This document shows positions 3,496 through 39,743 of a stretch of 64,000 bases of DNA, one piece after another; the stretch's first letter is position 1; the number at the start of each line of letters is the position of its first letter. The notes below the pieces were generated by a model. It was not told the origin of the DNA, searched no databases, and worked only from the letters and a program-made list of their open reading frames with translations. The DNA is taken from positions 719 through 64,718 of the forward strand of contig DATLFM010000097.1 of NCBI GenBank assembly GCA_035541015.1. Direction: 5' to 3'. Made by a program: the position numbers and the translations under genes. Source of the DNA: Thermoplasmatota archaeon (GTDB lineage Archaea; Thermoplasmatota; SW-10-69-26; JACQPN01; JAIVGT01).

Positions 3496-3596
3496 CCGAC
3501 GGAGGTTTCGCAGCCTCTCATGCCCCCGCCGCCGCAGCGTCCCGCCCCCCTATCAAGGTCGCGGGGGCGTTTCCGATGCGGGTTGCGTCGGAAGCT

Positions 3597-5959: not shown

Positions 5960-6137
5960 CCTTTCCACTCCCGACCTTCCGTCGTGAAAAGACCGACGGC
6001 GGCATCGAACTTCGGCCGCAGACGACGACGCGGCGATCCTGAAACGAACGTGCCTTGGCTCTCGAGCGTGCCCCCTTGCGGCCCGCGCCCCCGCGAGCGC
6101 ACAATATTCGGTGGCCGACGTTGAACCTGCCGCCGGA

Positions 6138-7646: not shown

Positions 7647-7680
7647 CCCTTACGAGAGGACGAGTCGTGCCCGAACCCCG

Positions 7681-22931: not shown

Positions 22932-23551
22932 GACGGGGTTCGAACGCCGACTCTCCCTTTTAATGGCTGCGTTGGCGGGCGCTCGATCGTTGCGCCGTTT
23001 CCCGGAACAGGAGCGCCCATCCGAGGACCCGGACCATCTCCTCGACGACCGGAAGCTCGGAGGCGTCGGGCCTCCCGGCCACGCGCGGAACGGGCTCCGC
23101 GGCTTGGTAGTTGCATCCCATGGACGGAGGAAAGGCCGGCGGCGCCGTCAAGCCTCGTAGGAACCGACCCGCCGACGGCACGTGGGCCGATTGCGCACGC
23201 TCCGGTCGTCCGTGCGTCGGTGGTGTGCGGGGCTCTGTCCGCCCCTGGCCACGGACGGGGCGACGCCAATCACGGACGGGGCCCGACGCGCTCGCTGAAG
23301 TGGAGCCTCCACGCGACGACGATCGCAAGGTCTCCGATCGCCTCCGCGTCGCGCGCCTCGACGAGGCCCGCAATGCGGAAGTCGGGGAAGTTGGGCGGGA
23401 TCCACCCGGGGAGGTGGGGCTTGAGGGAGGGCTCATGCCCGTGTCCGTCCGGCGTCGCGTGGCAGGCGTCCACGAGAATCGTTCTGCCCGAGCCACCATA
23501 AGCGTGTTGGATGCGTTCGCTAACGGCCGAACGGCGGCGGTTACCGCAACG

Positions 23552-24334
23552 TCACCGCGGCGGGCGGGCTTGGGCGCGCTCGGCGCGATACAGCCGCAGC
23601 ACGCTGATGCGCCATCGGAGGTGCAGCGCGTTTCCGACGAATCCGAACAGTTGCCGGAAGCCGAGCTTGGAGGCGCCGTGCTCCCGCTCGCGGAAGGTGA
23701 TGGGCACCTCCTCGATGCGGAAGCCCTTCCGGTAGACGATCGCGAGGAAGGACGTGAGGAAGGAATATCCCTTGTTGGCCTGGAGGTGGTCCCACGGGAT
23801 GGCCTCCACAACCTCGCGCGTGAAGGCGCGGTAGCCGTTCGTGTTGTCGCGCACGGGGTAGTTGCCGGCGATGAGGCGCGCGACGAGGAGGTTGGCCACG
23901 CGCGTCGTGAGCCGTCGCATCCACGGGCGGCCCACGACGACGCTCCCGCGCGCCAGGCGCGAGCCGATCGCAAGATCGGCTCCCGCGTCGAGCCGATCCA
24001 GCAGGCGTGGAAGGTCCGCGGGGTCGTGCGAGAGGTCCGCGTCCATCGAGAGATAGCGGTCGGGATCGAACCGGCGGCGGATCGTCTCGACCGCGTCCTT
24101 GTACGCGGCGCCGTAGCCTTCCTTGGCCGCGCGGTGGTGGACCGTGACGAAGTCGGGGTGGCGCCGCGAAAGCTCGTCGGCGACCTTGCCCGTGCCGTCG
24201 GGGCTGTTGTCGTCCACGACGACAAAGCGCGCGTTTGGGAGGCCAAGCGCCCGGAGCCGCTCGACGAGGAGCGGGAGGTTCTCGCGCTCGTTGTACGTGA
24301 GCGTGAAAAGGACTAACGACGGCGCTTTGCTCAT
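23552..24334 (-). CDS. GT2-family glycosyltransferase, dolichol-phosphate sugar synthase-like (DPM1/GtrB-like)
   Basis: The N-terminus SLVLFTLTYNERENLPLLVERL...VVVDDNSPDGTG carries the DxD-type GT2-A signature. The ORF extends to 24361, but the Met at 24334 precedes the conserved N-terminus. Confidence 0.8.
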   Translation of the reverse strand: MSKAPSLVLFTLTYNERENLPLLVERLRALGLPNARFVVVDDNSPDGTGKVADELSRRHPDFVTVHHRAAKEGYGAAYKDAVETIRRRFDPDRYLSMDADLSHDPADLPRLLDRLDAGADLAIGSRLARGSVVVGRPWMRRLTTRVANLLVARLIAGNYPVRDNTNGYRAFTREVVEAIPWDHLQANKGYSFLTSFLAIVYRKGFRIEEVPITFREREHGASKLGFRQLFGFVGNALHLRWRISVLRLYRAERAQARPPR

Positions 24335-24402
24335 CGCCCGCTCTCCTTGCGCATCGGCCACGGAACCTTTATGATGGCATCCCCGCGTGGCGGCCCCATC
24401 CG

Positions 24403-25695
24403 GTGGCTGCGATGACGGGCGACGGCGCGGCGGAAACCATCGAGCAGGTCAACCGACTCGTGGACAAGTACTTTTCGCGAGACCCCGCGTCGTTCTCCGT
24501 TCCCAAGGGACGGCTCCCGCTCGTCGTCCCAAGCTACGGGCCCGAGGAGGTCAAGGAAGCCGTCGAAGCGCTCCTGACAAGCTACGTCACGATGGGCGCA
24601 AAGGTGCGTCAGTTCGAGGAAGCCTGGTCGCAGTACCTTGGCTCCCGCTCGAGCATCATGGTGAACTCGGGCTCGAGCGCCAACCTGCTGGCCCTCTTTG
24701 CCGCCGCCAACCCGCACACGCGCGGGCGCCTCATGCCCGGCGACGAGGTCCTCGTTCCGGCCATGTGCTGGTCGACGACCGTGTACCCCATCGTGCAGGC
24801 GGGCGCGATCCCCGTGCTCGTCGACGTCGACCCGCAGACGCTCACCATGGACCCGCAGGCGGCGCGCGCGGCCCTCACCGACAAGACGCGCGCGATCATG
24901 CCCGTGCACCTCCTTGGCAACGCGGCCGATATGCGCGAGCTCTCTCGCCTGGCCGACGAGCGGGATCTGTGGCTCATCGAGGACTGCTGCGAGGCGCACG
25001 GCACGACGATCGACGGACGCAAGGTGGGAACCTTCGGCGACCTTGGCACGTACAGCTTCTTCTTCTCGCACGCCATCACGACGATCGAGGGCGGCGCGAT
25101 CAACACCGACGACGACGATCTCGCCGAGCTGCTGCGCCCGCTGCGCGCGCACGGGTGGATCCGGGAGATGAAGACGCGCGAAGCCATCGCCGCGCGTCAT
25201 CCGAACGTCGACCCCCGCTTTTTCTTCGTGAACGTCGGGTTCAACGTGCGGCCGACCGACCTGCAAGGCGGCTTTGGCATCCACCAGGTCCGCAAGCTCG
25301 AGTCCTTCGTCGAGGCGCGCCGACGCTACGCGCACGCGATCACGAAGGGCCTCTCCCGCCATGCCTCGGTGCTCGAGCTTCCGACCGAGCGCCCCGGCAC
25401 CCGGCACTCGTACTTCACGTATCCCGTGATCGTGCGCGAGGGCGCGCGCTTCCGGAAGGAGGACCTCATGCGCCATCTAGAGGCCCACGGCGTCGAGACC
25501 CGTCCGATCATCTCGGGGAACTTCGCCGAGCATCCTGCCTTCGGGCTCCTTCCCGCGCGCGTGGCGGGCTCGCTTCCCGCGGCCTCGCACGCGCACCGCG
25601 ACGGGTTCCTCTTCGGCGCACACCACCGCTTCGGCGAGGAGCAGGCGCGCTACGTCGTCGAGTGCTTCGATTCGTTCCTGCGCAAGCAGGACTGA
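24403..25695 (+). CDS. DegT/DnrJ/EryC1-family PLP enzyme with the ColD/E1-type 3-dehydratase signature (active-site Lys replaced by His)
   Basis: 430 aa. In the motif CEAHGTT...GTYSFFFSHAITTIEGG the canonical SF..K..TTGEGG lysine position is His. The start is GTG 24403 or ATG 24412. Confidence 0.8.
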   Translation: MAAMTGDGAAETIEQVNRLVDKYFSRDPASFSVPKGRLPLVVPSYGPEEVKEAVEALLTSYVTMGAKVRQFEEAWSQYLGSRSSIMVNSGSSANLLALFAAANPHTRGRLMPGDEVLVPAMCWSTTVYPIVQAGAIPVLVDVDPQTLTMDPQAARAALTDKTRAIMPVHLLGNAADMRELSRLADERDLWLIEDCCEAHGTTIDGRKVGTFGDLGTYSFFFSHAITTIEGGAINTDDDDLAELLRPLRAHGWIREMKTREAIAARHPNVDPRFFFVNVGFNVRPTDLQGGFGIHQVRKLESFVEARRRYAHAITKGLSRHASVLELPTERPGTRHSYFTYPVIVREGARFRKEDLMRHLEAHGVETRPIISGNFAEHPAFGLLPARVAGSLPAASHAHRDGFLFGAHHRFGEEQARYVVECFDSFLRKQD

Positions 25696-25753
25696 CGCGC
25701 GGGGCGCTCGCGTTCCCGAAACCTTCTTGTGCGCGCTTTGGCTTGGGGTCGGC

Positions 25754-26722
25754 ATGAAGCGGGCGCTCATCACGGGCATCACGGGCCAGGACGGCTCGTA
25801 CCTCGCCGAGCTCCTTCTCCAGAAGGGCTACGAGGTGCACGGGCTCGTCCGGCGCCTGAGCGTCCCCAACTTCTCGAACCTCGAGGCCATCAAGGACCGC
25901 ATCGTCCTCCACGACGGCGACATGCTCGACTCGGCCTCGCTCCAACGCATCGCCGCCGACGCGAAGCCCGACGAGGTCTACAACCTCGCGGCGCAGTCGT
26001 TCGTGCACGTCTCCTTCGGCCAGCCCGTTCTCACGAGCGACGTGACAGGCGTGAGCGTCTTCCGCCTGCTCGAAGCGGTTCGGCAGCGGGCGCCCGACGC
26101 GCGCTTCTACCAGGCGAGCTCCTCCGAGATGTTCGGCCTTGCCGCCGTCTCGCCGCAGGACGAGCGGACGCCGTTCCACCCGCGCAGCCCCTACGGCGTT
26201 GCCAAGGTCATGGCCTTCTGGGCGACCGTGAACCACCGCGAGAGCTACGGCATGTACGCGACAAACGGCATCCTCTTCAACCATGAGTCGCCGCGGCGTG
26301 GGCTCGAGTTCGTCACGCGCAAGATCGCGCGCGGCGTCGCCCGCATCGCCGAGGGCCTCGACCGCAAGCTCGTGCTTGGCAACCTCGACGCCAAGCGCGA
26401 CTGGGGCTACGCGCCCGAGTACGTGGAGGGCATGTGGCGCATGCTGCAGCACCCGCAGCCCGACGACTTCGTGCTGGCGACGGGCGAGTCGCACACGATC
26501 CGGGAGTTCTGCGAGCTCGCGTTCAAGGAGGTCGGCGTCGGTAATTGGGAGAAGCACGTCGAGAGCGACCCGCGCTTCTTCCGCCCCGCCGAGGTCCACG
26601 CGCTCTGCGGCGACGCGACGAAGGCGCGCACGCTCCTTGGCTGGAAGCCCAAGACGACCTTCCCGCAGCTCGTCTCGCTCATGGTGCAGGCCGAGCGCGA
26701 GCGGCTTCGCGCCAAGCCGTGA
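25754..26722 (+). CDS. gmd: GDP-mannose 4,6-dehydratase
   Basis: The sequence MKRALITGITGQDGSYLAELLL...YNLAAQSFV...YGVAKV...NHESPRRG... is a near-textbook Gmd. The start is the internal ATG at about 25754, within ORF 25727..26722. Confidence 0.9.
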   Translation: MKRALITGITGQDGSYLAELLLQKGYEVHGLVRRLSVPNFSNLEAIKDRIVLHDGDMLDSASLQRIAADAKPDEVYNLAAQSFVHVSFGQPVLTSDVTGVSVFRLLEAVRQRAPDARFYQASSSEMFGLAAVSPQDERTPFHPRSPYGVAKVMAFWATVNHRESYGMYATNGILFNHESPRRGLEFVTRKIARGVARIAEGLDRKLVLGNLDAKRDWGYAPEYVEGMWRMLQHPQPDDFVLATGESHTIREFCELAFKEVGVGNWEKHVESDPRFFRPAEVHALCGDATKARTLLGWKPKTTFPQLVSLMVQAERERLRAKP

Positions 26723-26725
26723 CGC

Positions 26726-27178
26726 TCAGCGCCGGCCGTAGGTCCAGTGGAAGTTGAGCGCGTAGTTGAACGAGAAGGCGCACAGCACGGCAAACAGCGC
26801 CGAGACCATGTAGGGGAAGCCCGCAAGCTCGGTGAAGGCAAAGAGCGCCGCCACGTTGATGCAAAGCCCGCCGAGGTTCACGACCTCGTAGCGGGCGAAC
26901 CGGCCGGCCCGAAGCCCGCTTCGCCGGTCGTGGAACGTGAAGGCGTCGTTGAGGAGAAAGTTCGTGACGATGGCCGTCTGGGTGGCGACGGCGCCGCTTG
27001 CGAGGTAGTACAGACCCGCGAACTCCGTGAGCGTGTAGAGCACGGCGAGGTTCACGCCGACGCCGCTTGCGCCCACGAGCATGAAGCGCAGCAGGCGGTG
27101 CGCCTCGAGGAAGGCGAGGCGGCGCCGGGCGTGGCCCGCAAGATCGAGCGCGCCAAGCCCGCCGCGCGGGGGGTCCAT
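26726..27178 (-). CDS. GtrA-family membrane protein (putative polyprenyl/dolichyl-phosphate-sugar flippase)
   Basis: 150 aa with 4 TM segments, forming the C-terminal portion of spurious ORF 26726..29218. The sequence RFMLVGASGVGVNLAVLYTLTEF...NFLLNDAFTFH is the GtrA family pattern. Confidence 0.7.
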   Translation of the reverse strand: MDPPRGGLGALDLAGHARRRLAFLEAHRLLRFMLVGASGVGVNLAVLYTLTEFAGLYYLASGAVATQTAIVTNFLLNDAFTFHDRRSGLRAGRFARYEVVNLGGLCINVAALFAFTELAGFPYMVSALFAVLCAFSFNYALNFHWTYGRR

Positions 27179-27259
27179 GGACTCCGCAAGACGCGCGCTC
27201 CGCATAAAGGAACAGGATTTGGAAACCCTTATCCGAGCGCTCGCTTTGCGTTGGAACCG

Positions 27260-29398
27260 ATGCTCGGGATCGCGCGGTGGGCGCTCCTCGGGTACGTCGG
27301 GCTCGCGCTTGCGCTCACCGCCCGGCTGCTCGCCTCGTTCCCGCACACGTGGCCGCGCGGTCCCGACCTCTACAACCTGTTCCTCCACCCGTTCCTCACG
27401 GCGCAGGGCGACTGGCTTTGGACCTCCCTTTCCGGCGCGGGCCACCCGCTGCACGCGCACCCGTTCAGCAGCACGTGGTACCCGCTCACGACCGGCCCCG
27501 TCGCGCTTCTGGGCCCCGAGCTTGGCGTCTACGCCATCCTCCTCGTGCACCTGGTCCTGGGCGCCGTGTTCTTCGACGTCCTCGCGCGCCGGTACGTTCC
27601 CGACCCGGCGTGGCGGTTCGTCGGCGCGTCGATCTTCCTGCTCGGCGGCTGCTTTGCGTCCCGGGTGTTCGCCGGCCACCTCGTGTTCCTTCCCAGCATC
27701 GCCTGGGCCCCGCTTGCGCTCCATTTCCTGCTGCGCGTCGCCGACGGCGAGGGCCTCCGGCCCGTGGTTGGCGCGGGCGTGGCGATCGGCGTCATGCTGC
27801 TGGGCGACGTCCACGTTCCCTTGTACATGGGCTTGGCCGCGCTTGCGCTCATGGCGACGGACGGCTTCGAATGGCCGACGGGGCGCTGGGCTCTCCCGCG
27901 CCTGCGGCCGCGGGTCCTGCTCGCGCTTGTGGCGGTCTTCCCCGTGGCCGCCGCCGTTGCGGCCGTGAAGGTGCTTCCGCTTGCCGAGTTCAGCTTCGTC
28001 GTAGGCCGCGTGGTCGAGCCCCTGTACGCGAGCATGGGCCTCTACGACCAGATCGCGTCCTTCCTCTCGAACGCGCGGTGGCAGATCCCGCAGGTGAACT
28101 TCGAGGAGCGCAACGTCTTCATCGGCCCGCTCGCGTTTGGCCTTGCGATCGCCGGCGCCTTTGCCTTCCCCGAGAAGCGCCGGATGCTCGCCCTCGTCGC
28201 CGTGCTCGTGATCTGGATCCAGGGGTTCTTCACGCCGCTTGGCGTCCTGCACCAGCTCCCCGTCCTGTCGATGCTTCGCGCGCCCGCGCGGGCCATGATG
28301 GTGCTCTTCCCGCTCGTGGTGCTCCTGGCCGCCGTGGGCCTTGCACGCCTGCCCCACTGGCTCGACCGCCTGGCGCCGGACCGTGCGCGCTGGCTTTGCC
28401 GCGGAACGCTTGCGCTTGCGGGCCTGCAGGCGCTTGAGATCGTGATGCCCGCGCTCGTGTTCCTCGTCATGCCGGCGATGTACGCGCGGTTCACCGAGAT
28501 CACGTCGTACGACGTGCGCCCGCTCGACCTGCTGTCGGTCGTGGCCGGCGTGCTCGTGGCCGCGCTCGTGCTGTCGCGCATGGGGCAGCCGATCCGTTGG
28601 CCTCCCCGTTGGCTTCCCCAGGGGCTGGCGCTGTTCATCGTGGGCTCGCTCCTTGCCGTGAACGGAAGCCTCTTCACGCCCGCCCCCTACCCCGGGCAGA
28701 CGGACGCGAGCGCGGAGCTTGCCGCCGCGCTTCCCCAGGAGGGCTACCATCTCGTGGAGCCCGACGGCGTGACCGACCTCTTCCTCGTCGCGAAAGGCGT
28801 TCCGACGCTGGAGGGCGTCGAGGGCCACAGCCTCGAGTGGATCAACGAGCCAAGCCTGCTTCTCGGGCGGGGCCCGCGCGCCTACCGCGTGGGCGAGCGC
28901 GTCCTGCATTGGCGCGACTACCTCGTGACGAACGCCACAGCGGAGAAGCACGCCAACGACTCGTCGCTGCGCCTTGTACAGACGCTCCACACGAAAGCTT
29001 TGGGCCCCCTTCTCCTGTACGAGGATCTGCAAGCCGCTCCACCGGCCTTCGTCGTGCGCGGAAGCGACGTGCAGCCCGCGAGCCTGCGGGCGATCGGCGG
29101 AGGCTCGATCGTGATCGATGCGCCGGCGCTTTCGGCGGGGGAGCGCGTGACGGTCAAGCAGACGTACTACCCCGGCTGGACCGTCTCGACCCCCGGCTTC
29201 CGCGTGGTCGACGATCAAGGCATGATCGCGGCCGAGGCCACGGCCGACTTCGCCGGAGGCGACGTTCGCCTTTCGTTCTCGCCGCCGCTTTTCTGGATCG
29301 GCGCGGCCATCGCGATCCCGACGCTTGCCGCGGCGGCCTGGGTTCTGGCTGGGGGCCGCGCCGCACTTGCGCCAAGGATCGGGCGTCTCCGGCCCTAG
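27260..29398 (+). CDS. Large polytopic membrane protein with a C-terminal extracytoplasmic domain. It may be a GT-C-like, dolichol-phosphate-sugar-dependent glycosyltransferase (AglS/YfhO-like).
   Basis: 712 aa from the ATG at about 27260, inside ORF 26747..29398. It has at least 12 predicted TM helices, then a 230-aa soluble domain and a final TM. It is divergent from the GtrA gene across an 81-bp intergenic region. Confidence 0.55.
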   Translation: MLGIARWALLGYVGLALALTARLLASFPHTWPRGPDLYNLFLHPFLTAQGDWLWTSLSGAGHPLHAHPFSSTWYPLTTGPVALLGPELGVYAILLVHLVLGAVFFDVLARRYVPDPAWRFVGASIFLLGGCFASRVFAGHLVFLPSIAWAPLALHFLLRVADGEGLRPVVGAGVAIGVMLLGDVHVPLYMGLAALALMATDGFEWPTGRWALPRLRPRVLLALVAVFPVAAAVAAVKVLPLAEFSFVVGRVVEPLYASMGLYDQIASFLSNARWQIPQVNFEERNVFIGPLAFGLAIAGAFAFPEKRRMLALVAVLVIWIQGFFTPLGVLHQLPVLSMLRAPARAMMVLFPLVVLLAAVGLARLPHWLDRLAPDRARWLCRGTLALAGLQALEIVMPALVFLVMPAMYARFTEITSYDVRPLDLLSVVAGVLVAALVLSRMGQPIRWPPRWLPQGLALFIVGSLLAVNGSLFTPAPYPGQTDASAELAAALPQEGYHLVEPDGVTDLFLVAKGVPTLEGVEGHSLEWINEPSLLLGRGPRAYRVGERVLHWRDYLVTNATAEKHANDSSLRLVQTLHTKALGPLLLYEDLQAAPPAFVVRGSDVQPASLRAIGGGSIVIDAPALSAGERVTVKQTYYPGWTVSTPGFRVVDDQGMIAAEATADFAGGDVRLSFSPPLFWIGAAIAIPTLAAAAWVLAGGRAALAPRIGRLRP

Positions 29399-30081
29399 GC
29401 CCGGACGCCTTCGGCTTGCAGGAACTCCTGCCAGTCCAGGCGCGGCCAGCCGCGCGCCGTCTCGAGCGCCTCCCGGTTCGAGGGTCCCACGAGGGGCGCG
29501 ATGCGTCGGGCCGTCGCCAGGAACTGGATGACGCGCAGCGTTTCCAGCGGCTCGCGGGCAAACGCGTGGGCGGAATCGACGATGTCCCCGTACGCGGCTT
29601 GCGTGTGCTCCAACGTGTCGCCCGCGTCCACGACCTCCGGGCAGTCGATGCAGACGCCAAGCTCGCGACCCATCGGTTTCAAGGGAAAGGCGCGGCAGGC
29701 GAGCGGCCTTTCATCGTACACCGAGCAGACGCCGCCTGGCGCGCCGGAGGGGCCGACGATCCAGGACGGGTCGCCGGGCGAGAACTCGCGGAAGAAGACG
29801 CACGTGTCGTGCGTCGCGCGGTAGCCCACGACGAGCACGCGCGAGGAGGCGAGGTCGAGCACGCCGTCGGTGGGCTCCATCTGCCACGCAAGCCCGCGCC
29901 GGCTCGCGACGGGCAGCAGGCGCGCGCGCTCGGCGCTCGTGAGGGGAAGGCCGGCCGTGTCGCTCAGCCGGTAGACCGGCCCTCGGCGGTCCGGCCACTC
30001 GTACACGTGCTGCATGAGGGAGCGGCAGCAGTGGCCGCAGGAGGTGCACTCGAACCGCGTTTCGGGGGCGGTGCCGTTCAA
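29395..30081 (-). CDS. YkgJ-family cysteine-cluster (CxxCxxCC) Zn/Fe-binding protein
   Basis: The N-terminus is MNGTAPETRFECTSCGHCC. A second Cys cluster lies downstream. Confidence 0.65.
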   Translation of the reverse strand: MNGTAPETRFECTSCGHCCRSLMQHVYEWPDRRGPVYRLSDTAGLPLTSAERARLLPVASRRGLAWQMEPTDGVLDLASSRVLVVGYRATHDTCVFFREFSPGDPSWIVGPSGAPGGVCSVYDERPLACRAFPLKPMGRELGVCIDCPEVVDAGDTLEHTQAAYGDIVDSAHAFAREPLETLRVIQFLATARRIAPLVGPSNREALETARGWPRLDWQEFLQAEGVRA

Positions 30082-36041: not shown

Positions 36042-37613
36042 GTGCCCGCCTCGCTGCTGTTCCGCAACGGCACGATCCTCACCATGGACCCCGCCCGCCC
36101 GCGGGTCGAGGCCCTCGCCGTCGGCGGCGGGCGCATCCTCGCCGCAGGCTCGCTCACGGAGGCGCGCGCGTTCGCAGGTCCGGGCACGCGGGTCGTCGAC
36201 CTTGGCCGACGCTGCCTGCTTCCGGCCTTCGTGGACGCCCACACGCATCTCACCCACTTTGGCCTCGACCTCTCGCGCCTGGACCTCTCGCAGGCCCGAA
36301 GCCTCCGCTCGGCGCTCGCCTCCCTGCGCGTCCGCGCCGCGCGCGCCAAGCCCGGCGCTTGGATCGTCGCACACTCGTTCGACGAGACGCGCTGGCCCGA
36401 GAACCGGCTTCCCACGCGCGCGGACCTCGACGCCGTCGCGCCCAACCGCAAGGTCCTTCTCCGCCGCGTGGACGGCCACAGCGCCGTCGTGAGCTCCGCC
36501 GCGCTCGTTCGGCTGGACCTGCGGGGGGTCGAAGGCGTCGAGCGCAAGGCGGGCGTCGCCACGGGCGTGCTGCGCGAGGACGCGGCGGACCGCGCGTACG
36601 AGGCCGCCCGGGCCACGCGCGAGGAGGTCGACGCGGGCTTGCGGAGGGGGGCGCGGCGGTTGCACGCGATGGGCGTGGCAAGCGTGGCCGAGACCTCCGA
36701 AGCGTGGGAGGCACGGGCGTATCGTCGCCACGCCCGCTCCGGGCGGCCGCTTGTTCGGGCGTACCTCAAGGCGCGCGAGTCGTTGCTCGACGAGGCGCTC
36801 GCCCGGGGCACCGCGGGCGACGCGTGGATCCGCTGGGGCGGCGTGAAACTGTACCTCGACGGGAGCTTTGGGTCGCACACGGCTGCGCTCTCGGAACCGT
36901 TTGCCGACGCGCCCGACGTGCGCGGGCTCCTCACGTACTCGGATGCGCGCTTGCGGTCGATCGCGCGGCGGGCGCACGCGGGCGGGCTGCAGCTTTGCAT
37001 GCACGCGATCGGCGACCGCGCGATCGACCAGGCGTTGGCGGCCGCGGCCGACGCGCAGCGGTCGCGCGCCCGCGCCGACGCGCGTCATCGGATCGAGCAT
37101 TTCCTTCTTCCCTCGCAGGACGCGATCGAGCGGGCGCGGCGCCTGGGCGTCGTGGCAAGCGTGCAGCCGAACTTTTTGGGCCGCTGGGGCGGCAAGGACG
37201 GGTTGTACGAGCGACGGCTGGGCGTGCGGCGCGCGTCGCGGTTGCTGCCGCTTCGCGACATGGCCGACGCGGGCGTGCGGATCGCCCTCGGGAGCGACGG
37301 CATGCCCTACGGTCCCCTGTTTGGCATCCATTCGGCCGTGAACGCGCGTTACCCCCGCCAACGGCTGACGGTCGACGAGGCGCTGCGGGCCTACACGGCC
37401 GACGCCGCTTGGGCGTGCCATGCGGAGGATCGCGTTGGAAGCCTTTCGCCGGGGAAGCTTGCGGACCTCGTCGTGCTCTCGCGCGATCCGCGTGAGGACC
37501 CGACCCGCATCGACCGGCTCTCCGCGGTCGCCACGTACCTCGACGGAAAGCTCGTGCACGGGGCCGTCTACCGCAGGCTGTCGAGCCAGCGGTCGGCGCG
37601 CAGCAGGCCGTAG
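36042..37613 (+). CDS. Metal-dependent amidohydrolase (Amidohydro_3/YtcJ-like)
   Basis: The metal-binding motifs are HTHL, MHAIGD, the IEH block and ALGSDG. The likely start is GTG at about 36042 (VPASLLFRNGTILTMDP), in frame within ORF 35724..37613, whose 5' part overlaps the tRNA. Confidence 0.8.
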   Translation: MPASLLFRNGTILTMDPARPRVEALAVGGGRILAAGSLTEARAFAGPGTRVVDLGRRCLLPAFVDAHTHLTHFGLDLSRLDLSQARSLRSALASLRVRAARAKPGAWIVAHSFDETRWPENRLPTRADLDAVAPNRKVLLRRVDGHSAVVSSAALVRLDLRGVEGVERKAGVATGVLREDAADRAYEAARATREEVDAGLRRGARRLHAMGVASVAETSEAWEARAYRRHARSGRPLVRAYLKARESLLDEALARGTAGDAWIRWGGVKLYLDGSFGSHTAALSEPFADAPDVRGLLTYSDARLRSIARRAHAGGLQLCMHAIGDRAIDQALAAAADAQRSRARADARHRIEHFLLPSQDAIERARRLGVVASVQPNFLGRWGGKDGLYERRLGVRRASRLLPLRDMADAGVRIALGSDGMPYGPLFGIHSAVNARYPRQRLTVDEALRAYTADAAWACHAEDRVGSLSPGKLADLVVLSRDPREDPTRIDRLSAVATYLDGKLVHGAVYRRLSSQRSARSRP

Positions 37614-38641
37614 CCGTACCGATCGTCGTGCGCAAGTCCCGACGCGCCGGCAAGCGGCCCGATCTTCTGCGCCGAGGCGGCAAGCGCGCTCTTCACGGCG
37701 CCGATGTGGCCGGCCCGGCTTCCCTCGCGCTTGAATTCGGGCTTGGCCTCGAGAAGGAGCGCAAGGGCGGCGGCCACGTACGGCGCGGCTTGGCTCGTGC
37801 CGTCGGCCGTCGCGTACTGCCCGCCGCGCCAGGGCCCGAGGATGCCCACGCCCGGCGCGACGATCTCGGGCTTGCGGTCGGGATTCTGCCGCGCGCCCAC
37901 GAGGCCGCCCACCACGCCGCCGTTGTCGCCCCGCTGGCTGAACGACGCGATGCGAAGGTTCCGGTCCACGGCGCCCACGGCGATCACGTCCTTCACGCTC
38001 GCCGGGCTTGCGACGTCGCCGTTTCCGCCGCCCTCGCGGTTGCCCGCGGCCGCGACGACGAACACGCCCGCGCGCAGCGCGTCGGAGACGGCGTTCTCCG
38101 TTTCCGTCCCAAGGAGGAGGCCCTTGGCGCCGCCCAGGCTCATGAGGATGACGTGCGCGCCTTGCGTCTTGGCCGTCGTGACCGCGCGCGCGACCGTCGT
38201 GTCCGATCCCTCCCCGCCGGCCCGGATGGCCTTGATGACGAGGAGCTCGACGCCCGGCGCGGAGGGCGCAAGCTTCACGCCGCTTAGGATCTCGGCCCAG
38301 AGACCCGTCGCGCCGACGACGAGGCCCGCCACGTGCGTGCCGTGCCCGTTGTCGTCGTACGGCTTGCCCTGCCCGTTCACGAGATCGGCCCATCGGACGG
38401 TGCGGCCCGCAAACGCCGGATGATCGGGATCGATGCCCGTGTCGATGATGGCAAGCCGCACGCCCGCCCCCGTGAGCCCGCGTCCGGCGAGCGTGGAAAG
38501 GCCCGTGGCCTCGCGAGCCCACTCGGTCTGCGCCACGCAGCCGGCAAGCGAGGGGACGAGGAGGAGGGCGGCAAGGGCAAGGCCAAGCGGCTGCGCGCGC
38601 ACGACAACGCGGAAGCGCCCGCGCGGGAAAACGTTTTTCAT
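37568..38641 (-). CDS. Subtilisin-like serine protease (S8), predicted lipoprotein
   Basis: The likely start is MKNVFPRGRFRVVVRAQPLGLALAALLLVPSLAGC, with a lipobox LAGC. An alternative GTG start is at about 38602. S8 motifs IIDTGID, DDNGHGTHVAG and GTSQAAPYVAAALALL are present. Confidence 0.8.
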   Translation of the reverse strand: MKNVFPRGRFRVVVRAQPLGLALAALLLVPSLAGCVAQTEWAREATGLSTLAGRGLTGAGVRLAIIDTGIDPDHPAFAGRTVRWADLVNGQGKPYDDNGHGTHVAGLVVGATGLWAEILSGVKLAPSAPGVELLVIKAIRAGGEGSDTTVARAVTTAKTQGAHVILMSLGGAKGLLLGTETENAVSDALRAGVFVVAAAGNREGGGNGDVASPASVKDVIAVGAVDRNLRIASFSQRGDNGGVVGGLVGARQNPDRKPEIVAPGVGILGPWRGGQYATADGTSQAAPYVAAALALLLEAKPEFKREGSRAGHIGAVKSALAASAQKIGPLAGASGLAHDDRYGYGLLRADRWLDSLR

Positions 38642-39743
38642 GCCACCCCCGGCTGCGGAGCCGATGCCCGGCGCGCTGCTTTTGGCCCACGACCGCTTCG
38701 ACCCGCTGTGGGGGAAGACGGCCGTATGCATCCTCCGCTACAACCCCGGCCGCGCGGTGGCCGTCGTGGACCGCAGCAACGCCGGCCGCGACGCGGGCGA
38801 GGTCGTTGGCCCCGTCGGCCGCGGCGTGCCCGTCGTCGCGTCGGTCGAAGAGGGGCTGCGATTTGGCCCCGACGAGGTCGTGATCGGAATCGCGCCCGTG
38901 GGAGGCGCCCTCCCGGACGCCTGGCGGCCGGACCTCCGCGCGGCGCTCGACAACGGCCTCGGCGTCGTCTCGGGCCTTCACACCTTCCTCGCCGACGACC
39001 CCGAGCTGTCCGCGCTTGCGCAAAAGAGCGGCGCAAGCATCGTGGACGTCCGCCGGCCGCCAGCCGAGAAGCGCATCCTCGACGGCTCGGGGCGCCGGGT
39101 CCGCGCGCCCGTCGTCCTCACGGTCGGCACGGATTGCTCCTCCGGCAAGATGACGACCGCCGTGGAGATCGTGCGCGCCGCCCGCGCGCGGGGCCTTCGG
39201 GCCGCGTTTGCCGCGACGGGGCAGACGGGGATCATGATCGGCGCCGACGCGGGCGTCGCCGTCGACGCCGTCGTCTCCGACTTCGTGGCGGGCGCGACCG
39301 AGCGCCTCGTGCTCGAATGCGCCCGCTCCGACCCCGACCTCATCGTGGTCGAGGGTCAAGGCACGCTCACGCATCCCGCCTACGCGGGCGTCACGGCAAG
39401 CCTTCTGTTCGGGGCCTGCCCCGACCTCCTCGTGCTCTGCCACGACGCGCGACGCAAGGAGATGAAGGGCTTTGGCGCAAAGCTCCGCTCGCCGCGCGAG
39501 GAGATCGCCCTCAACGAGACGCTCCTGTCCGGTTGGACGCGCGGGAAGGCGTGCGCCGTCTCGCTCATGACGCTTGGTCTCTCCGAGCGCGCGGCCAAGG
39601 ACGCCGTCGCCCGCGTGCGCCGCCAGACCCGGCTGCCCACGACCGATCCCGTGCGCTCTGGCCCAAAGCCGCTGCTCGACGCGGTGCTCGCGCGCGCCGG
39701 AAAGATCCCCGGCAAGCGCGCCCTCCGGAGGCTGAAGCGCTGA
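38640..39743 (+). CDS. DUF1611-family protein (Rossmann-like, typically partnered with dipeptide epimerase)
   Basis: The start ATG at 38640 overlaps the opposite-strand S8 start codon. The alternative Met at 38664 gives MPGALLLAHDRFDPLWGKTA. The family assignment rests on overall pattern and on the conserved partner gene downstream. Confidence 0.6.
   Translation: MPPPAAEPMPGALLLAHDRFDPLWGKTAVCILRYNPGRAVAVVDRSNAGRDAGEVVGPVGRGVPVVASVEEGLRFGPDEVVIGIAPVGGALPDAWRPDLRAALDNGLGVVSGLHTFLADDPELSALAQKSGASIVDVRRPPAEKRILDGSGRRVRAPVVLTVGTDCSSGKMTTAVEIVRAARARGLRAAFAATGQTGIMIGADAGVAVDAVVSDFVAGATERLVLECARSDPDLIVVEGQGTLTHPAYAGVTASLLFGACPDLLVLCHDARRKEMKGFGAKLRSPREEIALNETLLSGWTRGKACAVSLMTLGLSERAAKDAVARVRRQTRLPTTDPVRSGPKPLLDAVLARAGKIPGKRALRRLKR

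What the first reader, a model, noticed from the sequence alone, without database searches (positions are those of the whole stretch)
23552..29398. Compact glycan-modification module: GT2 Dol-P-sugar synthase-like, ColD-type 3-dehydratase, Gmd, GtrA flippase and a large GT-C-like membrane protein
Five adjacent genes lie in divergent and convergent arrangement across three short intergenic regions of 41-81 bp. Together they supply every component of a three-component lipid-linked sugar transfer system of the GtrA/GtrB/Gtr-type or YfhO-GtrA-CsbB kind. That is a cytoplasmic GT2 that makes polyprenyl-P-sugar, a GtrA-family flippase, and a 712-aa polytopic membrane protein with an external C-terminal domain that could transfer the sugar outside the cell. 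Next to these sit GDP-mannose 4,6-dehydratase and a ColD/E1-type PLP 3-dehydratase. Those two enzymes would yield a GDP-4-keto-3,6-dideoxyhexose. Reading the cluster this way, it would decorate surface glycoproteins or glycolipids with a deoxy or dideoxy hexose through a dolichol-phosphate intermediate. No such route is described for archaeal N- or O-glycans. No reductase/epimerase (ColC-like) is visible in the window, so the pathway is either incomplete here or ends in an unusual keto-sugar.
Basis: partly seen in the sequence, partly recalled or inferred. Interest (0 to 1): 0.8.

Follow-up and report, generated by a model that had tools for sequence, protein, structure and literature searches.

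The report
Archaeal lipid-linked deoxysugar glycosylation gene cluster
Five neighbouring genes in an uncultured Thermoplasmatota archaeon encode a complete kit for loading a sugar onto a membrane lipid carrier, flipping it and attaching it outside the cell. They sit next to two enzymes that start making a rare 3,6-dideoxy sugar; whether that rare sugar is the cargo is plausible but unproven.

Summary

- **GT2 (260 aa):** DPM1/DPMS-type. Best solved relative is Pyrococcus Dol-P-mannose synthase.
- **PLP enzyme:** ColD-type 3-dehydratase. It has His in place of the catalytic Lys and no E1 Fe-S cysteines.
- **Gmd:** scores above the curated equivalog cut-off.
- **Small membrane protein:** GtrA family. 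It matches the transmembrane domain of the same Pyrococcus synthase, so GT2 plus GtrA-like looks like a split type-III-like synthase.

No 4-reductase (ColC-like) lies anywhere in the 64 kb, and no other glycosylation gene does either.

Relatives of the GT-C and of the GtrA-like protein also sit beside small GT2 genes. Separately, 27 of 80 genomes with a ColD-family gene carry a DPM1/GtrB-like GT2 within 3.5 kb, often followed by a large polytopic membrane protein: clear GT-C hits in a Nitrosopelagicus and a Pseudobdellovibrionaceae locus, a sub-threshold one in a Nitrosopumilaceae locus.

A lipid-phosphate route for a dideoxyhexose is therefore plausible and apparently undescribed. It rests on gene context only. 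I rate it a new variant of a known kind.

The parts
23552..24334 (-). Soluble GT2 of the DPM1/DPMS (dolichyl/polyprenyl-phosphate sugar synthase) type, 260 aa, with no predicted TM helix
   Evidence: Pfam GT2 5e-23. Best NCBIfam hits are Dol-P hexose transferase, AglJ, PpgS and ArnC, all far below their curated cut-offs. Best PDB hit is P. furiosus DPMS 5mlz, chain residues 28-255, E 6e-29, followed by ArnC structures. Motifs read from the alignment: DADLSHDP, GSRL, R131 kept, S135->T, K178->S. No TM segment.
24335..24411 (.). Divergent 77-bp spacer between GT2 and the ColD-type gene, with an AT-rich TATA-like box CCTTTATG at 24366-24373
   Evidence: Sequence read. The octamer occurs only twice in 64 kb, and both copies are in this cluster. 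The pattern was chosen post hoc, so this is weak evidence.
24412..25695 (+). ColD-type PMP-dependent NDP-4-keto-6-deoxyhexose 3-dehydratase, 427 aa (430 aa from GTG 24403)
   Evidence: Pfam DegT 305 bits. Best PDB hits are ColD 2gms (1.5e-73) and E1 3bcx (5e-72). His aligns with ColD His188 in SFFFSHAITT, and the ColD H188K/N mutant chains differ at exactly that column. The E1 Cys-rich insertion 'dwgrdcycapgcdntck' is absent; the sequence reads LRAHGWIRE as in ColD. The His is invariant in 16 family members.
25754..26722 (+). GDP-mannose 4,6-dehydratase (Gmd), 322 aa
   Evidence: TIGR01472 432.5 bits, above the 415 cut-off. Pfam GDP_Man_Dehyd 4.8e-130. 57% identical to the Gmd that follows the closest ColD homologue in L005.
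26726..27178 (-). [quoted passage not shown]
   Evidence: Pfam PF04138 GtrA_DPMS_TM 92 bits against a cut-off of 26.1. The only significant PDB hit is PfDPMS chain residues 252-372, E 6e-11. Asn aligns at the N248 and N277 positions, Phe at F338, and Asn at R341 (residue roles from PMC12992685). Closest relatives are stand-alone 150-160-aa proteins next to a GT2 (Hadesarchaea L092) or a PMT_2 GT-C (L094).
27179..27259 (.). Divergent 81-bp spacer with two TATA-like boxes: CCTTTATG on the minus strand (27203-27210) and AAACCCTTAT on the plus strand (27223-27232)
   Evidence: The boxes lie about 25-30 nt upstream of the two start codons. The patterns were derived post hoc.
27260..29398 (+). Divergent YfhO-lineage GT-C glycosyltransferase, 712 aa: 13 TM helices, an external beta-rich domain (about 470-675) and a C-terminal TM anchor

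Best explanation
The five genes form one multi-component transmembrane glycosylation module of a Thermoplasmatota archaeon.

Proposed steps:
1. In the cytoplasm, Gmd converts GDP-mannose to GDP-4-keto-6-deoxymannose.
2. The ColD-type PMP enzyme removes the 3-hydroxyl, giving GDP-4-keto-3,6-dideoxymannose.
3. A 4-reductase (with or without an epimerase) that is not in this window finishes a GDP-3,6-dideoxyhexose.
4. The soluble DPM1-like GT2 transfers the GDP-activated sugar to dolichyl phosphate at the inner face of the membrane.
5. The GtrA/DPMS-TM-like protein anchors the GT2 and/or moves the Dol-P-sugar head group across the membrane.
6. The YfhO-like GT-C enzyme transfers the sugar from Dol-P to an acceptor outside the cell. 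The acceptor would be a surface glycoprotein glycan or lipoglycan. The enzyme's catalytic loop and C-terminal domain face outward.

Shown by the tools: family and fold identity of all five proteins, absence of a reductase in the window, and recurrence of similar gene combinations elsewhere.

Inferred: that the five act in one pathway, which sugar is carried, the flipping activity, and the acceptor.

My component confidences are about 0.9 for the gene identities, about 0.8 for GT2 + GtrA-like + GT-C acting as one lipid-linked transfer system, and about 0.5 for the cargo being the Gmd/ColD-derived deoxysugar.
For: **Gene identities.**

**The cluster is an island.** Pfam scans of the other ORFs in the 64 kb gave only housekeeping or unrelated genes: SRP54, FolD, LonB, A-ATPase, ribosomal proteins, proteases. 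The DPM1-like GT2 is therefore the only nearby consumer for a GDP-sugar made by Gmd/ColD. The two sugar-tailoring genes lie physically between the GT2 and its putative membrane partner.

**Relatives of the GT-C sit beside a small GT2.**
- L003: GT2 directly upstream, 31% identical to the window GT2.
- L088/L089: GT2 directly downstream, plus an LPG_synthase_TM flippase-like gene and a DegT aminotransferase.
- L090: GT2 plus LPG_synthase_TM.

**Relatives of the GtrA-like protein** sit beside an orthologous GT2 (Hadesarchaea, 42% identity) or a PMT_2 GT-C.

**From the ColD side.**
- 27 of 80 genomic loci with a ColD-family gene carry a GT2 similar to the window's within 3.5 kb. The density is 7-fold higher than in the outer flanks (27 against 6 hits, binomial p 7e-7).
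- The generic GT2 genes in L004-L006 do not pass the same threshold.
- Representatives of these ColD-adjacent GT2s best match AglJ, Dol-P-hexose, PpgS and ArnC models.
- The gene next to them is often a large polytopic membrane protein. In L076 it is GT87 (a GT-C family). In L023 it is PMT_2, lying between the GT2 and ColD in a Nitrosopelagicus genome. In L020 (Nitrosopumilaceae) there is a sub-threshold PMT_2 match plus a weak, borderline Wzx-type (Polysacc_synt) match. In L046 it is LPG_synthase_TM.

**Precedent.** DPM1/DPMS-type enzymes use GDP-sugars (PMC5526996), which matches the nucleotide of the Gmd/ColD pathway.
Against: - No ColC/Fcl/Rmd-like SDR or any other second SDR is in the 64 kb. 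The closest ColD homologues have ColD-Gmd-reductase operons inside ordinary Wzx/Wzy clusters. The pathway as encoded here therefore stops at a 4-keto sugar.
- The GT2 keeps residues that contact mannose O2, O3 and O6 in PfDPMS (D89, H94, R117; with PMC5526996). Its closest relative (Hadesarchaea, 42%) is not next to ColD or Gmd. It may simply make Dol-P-mannose.
- The only two close relatives of the GT-C (45% and 42% identity) lie on short contigs without ColD, Gmd or GtrA.
- None of the 80 ColD loci has a YfhO-like or GtrA-family gene by my profile and phmmer searches. Many of the adjacent polytopic proteins have no family assignment.
- Glycan genes cluster in general, so adjacency is weak evidence for a linear pathway.
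Confidence: 0.5

Rival explanations
1. Two independent functions share a substrate. GT2 plus the GtrA-like protein is a split housekeeping Dol-P-mannose synthase, and the YfhO-like GT-C uses its product to mannosylate a surface acceptor. Gmd and ColD feed a deoxysugar to a cytoplasmic Leloir glycosyltransferase encoded elsewhere. The genes are neighbours only because all draw on GDP-mannose and serve surface glycans.
For: - The GT2's best solved relative is a bona fide Dol-P-Man synthase, and the Dol-P phosphate ligands R117 and R131 and the mannose-contacting D89 and H94 are retained (PMC5526996).
- The GtrA-like protein keeps the Asn/Asn/Phe pocket that holds the mannosyl head group of flipped Dol-P-Man (PMC12992685).
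- An orthologous GT2/GtrA-like pair exists in Hadesarchaea without ColD or Gmd.
- The closest ColD homologues work in classical Wzx/Wzy clusters with Leloir GTs.
- No reductase is present here.
Against: - No Leloir GT and no other glycan gene is within 64 kb.
- ColD and Gmd are interleaved between the GT2 and the GtrA-like gene.
- DPM1/GtrB-like GT2 genes are 7-fold enriched right next to ColD-family genes in 80 other genomes. In several they are in the same operon as ColD and a GT-C.
Confidence: 0.33
2. The pathway really lacks a nucleotide-level reductase. The 4-keto-3,6-dideoxy sugar is loaded on Dol-P as such. It is then either reduced on the lipid, as decaprenyl-P-ribose is epimerised through a keto intermediate by DprE1/E2, or transferred as a keto sugar.
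For: - No SDR other than Gmd is in the window.
- L064 (Pseudobdellovibrionaceae) also has ColD-Gmd-GT2 followed by an 879-aa 10-TM protein, with no ColC-like hit in 21 kb.
- Lipid-stage tailoring has precedents in the mycobacterial arabinose pathway and the pentofuranose three-component systems (PMC11127046).
Against: - The MAG is incomplete and only 64 kb was examined, so a reductase elsewhere is the simpler reading.
- Most ColD loci with an adjacent DPM1-like GT2 do carry a ColC-like SDR.
- I know of no case of a 4-keto hexose being transferred to a polyprenyl phosphate (my own knowledge, not tested).
Confidence: 0.07
3. The DegT-family enzyme is an aminotransferase. The cluster would then make a GDP-4-amino-4,6-dideoxyhexose (perosamine-like) rather than a 3,6-dideoxy sugar, in analogy to ArnB in the Arn pathway.
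For: - Perosamine synthases are the next-best PDB hits (5e-53).
- A relative of the GT-C (L088) is clustered with a true DegT aminotransferase and an acetyltransferase.
Against: - The catalytic Lys is replaced by His, exactly as in ColD and E1.
- The ColD H188K chain differs from wild type at that very column.
- The His is invariant in the family.
- ColD and E1 show no transaminase activity unless His is mutated to Lys (PMC8987622).
Confidence: 0.03
4. The cluster is a decaying or incomplete remnant. The reductase was lost and the deoxysugar branch is non-functional.
For: The reductase that follows ColD-Gmd in the closest homologous operons is missing. In its place, a convergent gene lies 3 bp after Gmd.
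Against: - All five ORFs are intact and full length relative to homologues.
- Catalytic residues are preserved.
- GC3 is typical of coding sequence in this genome.
- Base composition matches the rest of the window.
Confidence: 0.05

Closest known systems
CsbB-GtcA-YfhO multi-component transmembrane glycosylation of teichoic acids (Bacillus, Staphylococcus, Listeria; PMC8035078)
   Same: The same three parts are present: a GT-A/GT2 that makes a polyprenyl-P-sugar, a GtrA-family small membrane protein, and a YfhO-lineage GT-C with a large external domain.
   Different: - The host is an archaeon, so the carrier is presumably dolichyl phosphate.
- The GT2 is a soluble DPM1-type enzyme, implying a GDP-sugar rather than UDP-GlcNAc, and has no TM helices.
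- The GT-C is too divergent to hit Pfam YfhO directly.
- Nucleotide-sugar tailoring genes are embedded in the cluster.
- There is no teichoic acid acceptor in archaea.
Arn pathway for lipid A aminoarabinose (ArnA/B/C/D/E/F/T)
   Same: The cluster logic is the same. An SDR enzyme and a DegT-family PLP enzyme tailor a nucleotide sugar. A GT2 (ArnC, second-best PDB relative of the window GT2) loads it on a polyprenyl phosphate. A small flippase moves it, and a GT-C (ArnT, top Foldseek hit) transfers it outside.
   Different: - The Arn pathway uses a UDP-sugar.
- ArnB is a true Lys aminotransferase.
- ArnC has its own TM helices.
- The ArnE/F flippase is not GtrA-family by sequence here.
- The acceptor is lipid A.
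Details of the Arn pathway beyond and PMC12690121 are from my own knowledge.
Haloferax volcanii AglD-AglR-AglS (PMC3871713)
   Same: An archaeal route in which a sugar (mannose) is put on its own dolichyl phosphate, moved across the membrane and added outside to an N-glycan by a Dol-P-mannose-dependent transferase.
   Different: - The cargo is mannose, not a deoxysugar.
- AglR is a Wzx-like protein rather than GtrA-like.
- No Gmd or ColD is involved.
- aglD is not clustered with the rest.
Pyrococcus furiosus type-III Dol-P-mannose synthase (PDB 5mlz, 9ep0; PMC5526996, PMC12992685)
   Same: The GT2 aligns to its catalytic domain and the GtrA-like protein aligns to its four-helix TM domain. The TM-domain polar pocket (N248, N277, F338, and Asn at the R341 position as in non-Thermococcales members) is kept.
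   Different: - The window has two separate genes 2.4 kb apart instead of one polypeptide.
- The catalytic motif is DADLSHDP, not DADxQHPP.
- K178 is Ser.
- The published definition restricts type III to hyperthermophiles.
Bacterial GDP-L-colitose pathway (Gmd, ColD, ColC; PMC8987622)
   Same: The first two committed enzymes are present and adjacent. The ColD hallmarks are met: catalytic His and no Fe-S cluster.
   Different: - No ColC is present.
- No ManB/ManC and no Leloir colitosyltransferase is in the window.
- The protein belongs to a roughly 427-aa subfamily with an E1-like N-terminal extension.
Pentofuranose three-component systems and mycobacterial decaprenyl-P-arabinose (PMC11127046)
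   Same: A rare sugar reaches an extracytoplasmic GT-C through a polyprenyl-monophosphate donor, and the genes for sugar tailoring lie in the same small module.
   Different: Those systems start from PRPP and tailor the sugar after it is on the lipid. Here the tailoring enzymes act on a GDP-sugar.

Membership tests
ColD-type NDP-hexose 3-dehydratase | Aspartate-aminotransferase-like (DegT/DnrJ/EryC1) fold | tested here: met
   Pfam PF01041 305 bits over residues 48-422.
ColD-type NDP-hexose 3-dehydratase | Catalytic His in place of the Schiff-base Lys (PMC8987622) | tested here: met
   His in SFFFSHAITT aligns with ColD His188. The H188N and H188K mutant chains differ at exactly that column. 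The His is invariant in 16 homologues.
ColD-type NDP-hexose 3-dehydratase | No [2Fe-2S] four-Cys motif (this separates ColD from E1 and SpnQ) | tested here: met
   The E1 insertion 'dwgrdcycapgcdntck' is a gap in the query, which reads LRAHGWIRE like ColD's IRAHGWTRN.
ColD-type NDP-hexose 3-dehydratase | Acts on GDP-4-keto-6-deoxymannose | not testable with these tools
   Context only: a bona fide Gmd starts 58 bp downstream.
GDP-L-colitose pathway | ColC (GDP-L-colitose synthase: 5-epimerase/4-reductase) present with ColD and Gmd | tested here: not met
   tblastn of Gmd and of the ColC-like SDR from L005 against the window finds only Gmd itself. Pfam scans of the other ORFs found no second SDR.
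GDP-mannose 4,6-dehydratase | Score above the curated equivalog cut-off | tested here: met
   TIGR01472 432.5 bits against 415.
Polyprenyl/dolichyl-phosphate sugar synthase (DPM1/DPMS/GtrB/ArnC-type GT2) | GT-A GT2 domain with a DxD motif, closest to enzymes that glycosylate a lipid phosphate | tested here: met
   The DAD motif is present. The only PDB hits with E <= 1e-5 are PfDPMS (6e-29) and three ArnC sequences. The top NCBIfam hits are Dol-P hexose transferase, AglJ, PpgS and ArnC.
Polyprenyl/dolichyl-phosphate sugar synthase (DPM1/DPMS/GtrB/ArnC-type GT2) | Reaches the curated cut-off of a named equivalog | tested here: not met
   The best score is 67.6 bits against a cut-off of 375. Only family-level resemblance is shown.
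Type-III Dol-P-mannose synthase (definition in PMC12992685) | Motif DADxQHPP, plus R117 (SRY), R131, S135 and K178 (KIL) | tested here: not met
   The window has DADLSHDP (Q93->S, P95->D), SRL, R131 kept, S135->T and K178->S, read from the alignment.
Type-III Dol-P-mannose synthase (definition in PMC12992685) | Catalytic domain fused to a four-helix TM domain | tested here: not met
   The two parts are separate genes (23552-24334 and 26726-27178) with ColD and Gmd between them.
Type-III Dol-P-mannose synthase (definition in PMC12992685) | TM-domain polar pocket N248 and N277 with gating F338 | tested here: met
   Asn, Asn and Phe align at these positions, and Asn aligns at the R341 position, as reported for non-Thermococcales members.
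GtrA family | Pfam PF04138 above the gathering score; small protein of about 4 TM helices | tested here: met
   92 bits against 26.1, covering profile positions 1-116 of 117; 150 aa.
GtrA family | Translocates a polyprenyl-P-sugar | not testable with these tools
   Inferred from family and context. Even for PfDPMS the flipping role is a hypothesis (PMC12992685).
YfhO family (Pfam PF09586) | Direct match to the family model | tested here: not met
   No Pfam or NCBIfam hit at E <= 0.01.
YfhO family (Pfam PF09586) | Homology to family members | tested here: met
   245 homologues at E <= 1e-3 in a full HMMER search. 34 of 60 aligned homologues match YfhO (best 1.7e-30) and 9 match PTPS_related. 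The shared motifs W54, G61xP63, Y74P75 and the C-terminal YPGW are present.
GT-C fold glycosyltransferases | GT-C membrane fold | tested here: met
GT-C fold glycosyltransferases | Conserved acidic residue in the first external loop | tested here: inconclusive
   D36 is nearly invariant (>= 90% of 60 homologues) and lies just after TM1 in the first external loop of the model. No superposition on a known catalytic Asp was possible.
Three-component / multi-component transmembrane glycosylation system (PMC8035078, PMC11127046) | Lipid-phosphate sugar synthase plus flippase candidate plus GT-C encoded together | tested here: met
   All three gene types lie within 5.8 kb. The same pairings are seen in relatives.
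Three-component / multi-component transmembrane glycosylation system (PMC8035078, PMC11127046) | A lipid-monophosphate-linked sugar is the donor for an extracytoplasmic transfer | not testable with these tools
   This requires biochemistry or lipidomics.

The most novel reading that the evidence does not exclude
A 3,6-dideoxyhexose (or its 4-keto precursor) made by Gmd and a ColD-family dehydratase is loaded on dolichyl or polyprenyl monophosphate by a DPM1/GtrB-like GT2 and added to surface glycans outside the cell by a GT-C enzyme. The window would be the Thermoplasmatota version, with a YfhO-like GT-C and a split DPMS. It would belong to an unrecognised module that recurs with different GT-C families in Nitrosopumilales (PMT_2) and Pseudobdellovibrionaceae (GT87). 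Similar arrangements, with polytopic proteins that have no family assignment, occur in Thorarchaeota, Woesearchaeota, Rokubacteria and several Proteobacteria.
Probability: 0.4. Interest if true: 0.7.

Novelty: new variant of a known kind. Interest (0 to 1): 0.55.

Why it matters
Dideoxyhexoses such as colitose are known as cytoplasmically added O-antigen sugars of a few Gram-negative bacteria, and rare sugars are thought to be largely absent from archaea (PMC7725333). If this module works as proposed, three things follow.

- Lipid-monophosphate-linked dideoxyhexoses would be added to the short list of donors used for extracytoplasmic glycosylation.
- A first function would be assigned to an archaeal YfhO-like GT-C enzyme.
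- The GtrA-like TM domain of Pyrococcus Dol-P-Man synthase would be shown to exist as a free-standing partner. That bears on the open question of how Dol-P-sugars are flipped (PMC12992685).

The recurrence of ColD-family + DPM1-like GT2 + polytopic membrane protein in abundant marine Thaumarchaeota and in predatory bacteria gives tractable systems in which to test the idea. If the cargo turns out to be plain mannose, the cluster is an ordinary Dol-P-mannose system next to an incomplete deoxysugar pathway.

Tried and rejected
- **Single-sequence AF2** of the 712-aa protein gave pLDDT 42.8 and was unusable. It was replaced by a model built on 60 remote homologues.
- **The word-indexed protein search** found only the protein itself. 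Pattern scans of genome contigs and metagenome contigs with the three closest sequences found no further relatives, only a fragment of the same organism. An 11-sequence alignment was too divergent for that tool.
- **A profile of the YfhO-like family** against PDB sequences gave nothing significant, so only fold comparison worked.
- **E1/RfbH-type (CDP, Fe-S) identity** of the PLP enzyme was considered, because RfbH is the top NCBIfam hit (324 bits, below the 423 cut-off). It was rejected because the Cys motif is absent and Gmd is adjacent.
- **An aminotransferase reading** was rejected on the His/Lys position.
- **hhalign of the YfhO profile** against the large membrane proteins of L064 and L016 showed no relationship.
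- **The small 4-TM proteins of L016** are not homologous to the window GtrA-like protein.
- **Many polytopic proteins next to ColD-adjacent GT2s** have no Pfam family, so I do not call them GT-C.
- **The CxxCxxCC protein** overlapping the 3' end of the GT-C gene is not conserved next to relatives.
- **Rfam and tRNA scans** found nothing in the 620-nt gap upstream of the cluster.
- **Shared TATA-like octamers** in the two divergent spacers were noted, but the patterns were derived from those very sites. The looser CYTTAT pattern matches seven times in the window, four of them outside the cluster, close to chance expectation. I do not count this as evidence of co-regulation.
- **The AFDB fold library** was unavailable.
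- **GT2 sequence similarity does not sort by ColD association.** The nearest GT2 (Hadesarchaea) is not ColD-linked. Donor-sugar specificity could not be read from the sequence.

Full report
**Source and setting.** The window is about 69% G+C throughout. The 712-aa protein is identical to a hypothetical protein of a 'Candidatus Thermoplasmatota archaeon' MAG. Archaeal markers fill the rest of the window: SRP54, LonB, A-type ATPase subunits, eIF-6, and ribosomal proteins L31e and S19e.

The ORFs with coding-like codon bias in the 64 kb were scanned against Pfam. Apart from the five genes in question, only housekeeping or unrelated genes were found. There is no other glycosyltransferase, no oligosaccharyltransferase, no nucleotidyltransferase, no Wzx/Wzy, and no second SDR. 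The cluster is therefore a small island, and its composition matches its surroundings.

**Observation.** The five genes are real, and the public annotation of the same contig calls them identically.
- GT2: 23552-24334 (-).
- DegT-family enzyme: 24412-25695 (+).
- Gmd: 25754-26722 (+).
- GtrA-family protein: 26726-27178 (-).
- 712-aa membrane protein: 27260-29398 (+).

The spacers are 77, 58, 3 and 81 bp.

**The sugar-tailoring pair.** Gmd scores 432.5 bits on TIGR01472, above the curated cut-off of 415.

The DegT-family protein is closest to E. coli ColD (2gms, 1.5e-73) and Yersinia E1 (3bcx, 5e-72). Both are well ahead of perosamine synthases at 5e-53. Its SFFFSHAITT segment places His at ColD His188. 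The PDB chains of the H188N and H188K mutants differ from wild type at exactly this column. The His is invariant in 16 members of its roughly 427-aa subfamily.

E1 carries a Cys-rich insertion (dwgrdcycapgcdntck) that holds its [2Fe-2S] cluster. The window protein has a gap there and reads LRAHGWIRE, like ColD.

By the criteria in the review PMC8987622 (His instead of Lys; no Fe-S cluster), it is a ColD-type 3-dehydratase. With Gmd 58 bp downstream, the expected product is GDP-4-keto-3,6-dideoxymannose.

The next enzyme of the colitose pathway is missing. tblastn with Gmd, and with the ColC-like SDR that follows ColD-Gmd in the closest homologous operon (L005), finds nothing else in the window.

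**The lipid-loading pair.** The GT2 has no TM helix. Its significant PDB matches are P. furiosus Dol-P-mannose synthase (5mlz, chain residues 28-255, 6e-29) and three ArnC sequences. Its best NCBIfam matches are Dol-P hexose transferase, AglJ, PpgS and ArnC, all far below their equivalog cut-offs. It is therefore a lipid-phosphate sugar synthase of unassigned specificity.

The GtrA-family protein scores 92 bits on Pfam. Its only significant PDB match is the C-terminal TM domain of the same Pyrococcus enzyme (chain residues 252-372, 6e-11). Together the two genes reproduce the domain order of type-III DPMS as separate polypeptides.

I read the alignments against the motif definition in PMC12992685.
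- The TM-domain pocket residues are kept: N248, N277 and F338, with Asn at the R341 position.
- The catalytic motifs deviate: DADLSHDP rather than DADxQHPP, and K178 replaced by Ser.
- From memory, DADLSH is what human DPM1 has, so these deviations do not by themselves indicate a non-mannose donor.

The closest relatives of the GtrA-like protein are free-standing proteins of 150-160 aa. In a Hadesarchaea genome one lies divergently beside a GT2 that is 42% identical to the window GT2. In another contig one is followed by a 789-aa PMT_2 GT-C.

**The large membrane protein.** It has no direct Pfam or NCBIfam hit, and only two close relatives exist among about 15 billion proteins (45% and 42% identity).

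An exhaustive HMMER search found 245 remote homologues. Of 60 aligned, 34 match Pfam YfhO and 9 match the related PTPS_related family. The alignment shows the N-terminal motifs W54, G61xP63 and Y74P75, a nearly invariant Asp36, conserved R250/R340/R344, and a C-terminal YPGW.

The helices of the model and the loop charges fit an N-in topology. It has 13 TM helices, Asp36 in the first external loop, a 200-residue beta-rich external domain with three N-glycosylation sequons, and a final TM anchor with an Arg-rich cytoplasmic tail. It is a divergent YfhO-lineage GT-C glycosyltransferase, not a transporter.

**Do the parts belong together?** I looked from the GT-C side first.
- In L003 a GT2 lies directly upstream of the 42% relative.
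- In L088/L089 a more distant relative is followed by a GT2. It is also near an LPG_synthase_TM flippase-like gene, a DegT aminotransferase and an acetyltransferase.
- In L090 another relative is clustered with a GT2 and LPG_synthase_TM.
- L091 and the short L002 are uninformative.

GT2 + flippase candidate + this GT-C lineage is therefore a recurring unit, with a variable flippase.

From the ColD side, I fetched 80 genomic loci from a pattern scan of species-representative genomes. None contains a YfhO-like or GtrA-family gene by my searches. However, 27 carry a GT2 similar to the window's (phmmer E <= 1e-5) within 3.5 kb of the ColD-family gene. These hits are 7-fold denser near ColD than in the outer flanks (27 against 6; p 7e-7). 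As an internal control, the generic GT2 genes of the Wzx/Wzy clusters L004-L006 do not pass the same threshold.

Two sequence types occur, and both best match AglJ, Dol-P-hexose, PpgS and ArnC models. The adjacent gene is frequently a large polytopic membrane protein. Those that could be classified are listed below.
- L076 (Pseudobdellovibrionaceae): GT87, a GT-C family, in the order GT2-ColD-GT87, with Gmd and a second SDR divergent.
- L023 (Nitrosopelagicus): PMT_2, in the order GT2-PMT_2-ColD-SDR-ColC-like.
- L020 (Nitrosopumilaceae): a PMT_2 match below the gathering score, plus weak, borderline matches to Wzx-type flippase families.
- L046: LPG_synthase_TM.

A Thorarchaeota locus (L016) has a 15-TM protein, ColD, a ColC-like SDR, Gmd, two small 4-TM proteins and a GT2. 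None of the membrane proteins there is homologous to the window's. Many other polytopic neighbours have no family.

**Interpretation.** I find the link between the deoxysugar branch and the lipid route plausible for three reasons.
1. The DPM1-like GT2 is the only glycosyltransferase able to use a GDP-sugar within 64 kb.
2. ColD and Gmd are interleaved with the transfer genes.
3. ColD-family genes are independently and repeatedly joined to DPM1/GtrB-like GT2s and to different GT-C families in distant lineages.

The link remains an inference, for these reasons.
- The GT2 is most like a mannose enzyme.
- Its nearest orthologue is not ColD-linked.
- The reductase is missing.
- The two close relatives of the GT-C lack ColD and Gmd.

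The main rival is a split Dol-P-mannose synthase with a YfhO-like mannosyltransferase, next to an unrelated and locally incomplete deoxysugar pathway. I give it about one chance in three.

**Comparison with what is known.** The logic is that of the bacterial multi-component transmembrane glycosylation systems: Gtr, CsbB-GtcA-YfhO and the pentofuranose systems (PMC8035078, PMC11127046). It is closest in organisation to the Arn pathway, where an SDR and a DegT-family enzyme tailor the sugar before a GT2, a small flippase and a GT-C handle it. In archaea the precedent is AglD/AglR/AglS for the terminal mannose of the Haloferax N-glycan (PMC3871713).

In the library searched, the only work containing both 'colitose' and 'GT-C' was the genome survey PMC7725333 and its preprint, and nothing connected a 3-dehydratase with a polyprenyl-phosphate donor. 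That survey found most rare sugars absent from archaea.

I therefore rate this as a new variant of a known kind. Its most interesting aspects are the candidate lipid-linked dideoxyhexose donor, the archaeal YfhO-like enzyme, and the split DPMS.

**Limits.** All functional statements rest on sequence, predicted structure and gene context. The MAG outside this window could not be examined. The ColD-locus survey used my own thresholds and a simple hydropathy count for membrane proteins.

Noticed in passing
window 22932-23551: A 620-nt stretch between SRP54 and the GT2 has no called gene. Rfam and tRNA scans found nothing there. It contains a coding-like stop-to-stop frame (23270-23551, minus strand) with no start codon, possibly a gene remnant. 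That frame has no informative PDB relative.
   Followed up: partly
window 24366-24373 (+), 27203-27210 (-), 27223-27232 (+), 25718-25734 (+): AT-rich TATA-like boxes lie about 25-45 nt upstream of the ColD-type, GtrA-like, YfhO-like and Gmd start codons. The octamer CCTTTATG occurs only twice in 64 kb, both times in this cluster. The patterns were derived post hoc, so this is only a hint of shared promoters.
   Followed up: partly
window 29395-30081 (-): A 228-aa CxxCxxCC (putative zinc/iron-chelating) protein overlaps the stop codon of the GT-C gene by 4 nt in convergent orientation. It is not found next to relatives of the GT-C.
   Followed up: yes
window 1090-3549, 4742-6250, 37568-38737, 7537-9825: Three subtilase (S8) genes, one with an fn3 domain, and a CARDB/Ig-domain protein lie in the window. 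These are likely secreted or surface proteins that could be glycosylation targets.
   Followed up: no
L023 1746-7525 (Candidatus Nitrosopelagicus sp. AH-558-I11): A single-strand block runs GT2 (GtrB-like, with C-terminal TM helices), PMT_2 GT-C, ColD-family gene, SDR, ColC-like SDR. A similar block in a Nitrosopumilaceae MAG (L020 9986-16180) has a weak, borderline Wzx-type match and a sub-threshold PMT_2 match. Marine Thaumarchaeota may carry the same kind of module.
   Followed up: partly
L076 1273-6458 (Pseudobdellovibrionaceae MAG); also L073 and L015: A DPM1-like GT2 (84-121 bits to the window GT2) lies in the same operon as a ColD-family gene. In L076 it is followed by a GT87 (GT-C) protein.
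   Followed up: partly
L025, L027, L032, L042, L046, L049, L064, L072 (mostly Bdellovibrionota and Proteobacteria): A conserved operon runs ColD-Gmd-(ColC-like)-234-aa GT2. The GT2 has a distinctive DGGSTDG...SPDGNEDP...INGYRAI signature and best matches AglJ. It is often followed by an unclassified polytopic membrane protein or by LPG_synthase_TM. L064 has no ColC-like gene in 21 kb.
   Followed up: partly
L010, L013, L053: The 600-626-aa polytopic proteins downstream of ColD-adjacent GT2s match Pfam DUF6798 at their C-terminal ends, clearly only in L053 and below the gathering score in L010 and L013. This may be an unrecognised glycosyltransferase family linked to this module.
   Followed up: no
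L088 1-11637 and L090 3476-8596: Distant relatives of the window GT-C sit in clusters with a small GT2, an LPG_synthase_TM flippase-like protein and SAM methyltransferases. In L088 the cluster also has a DegT aminotransferase and an acetyltransferase. This suggests the same transfer machinery is used for other tailored sugars.
   Followed up: partly
L092/L093 6066-7480 (Hadesarchaea): An orthologous split pair is present: a GT2 (42% identity to the window GT2) divergently adjacent to a GtrA/DPMS-TM-like protein (44% identity). This shows the split synthase arrangement is not peculiar to this genome.
   Followed up: yes
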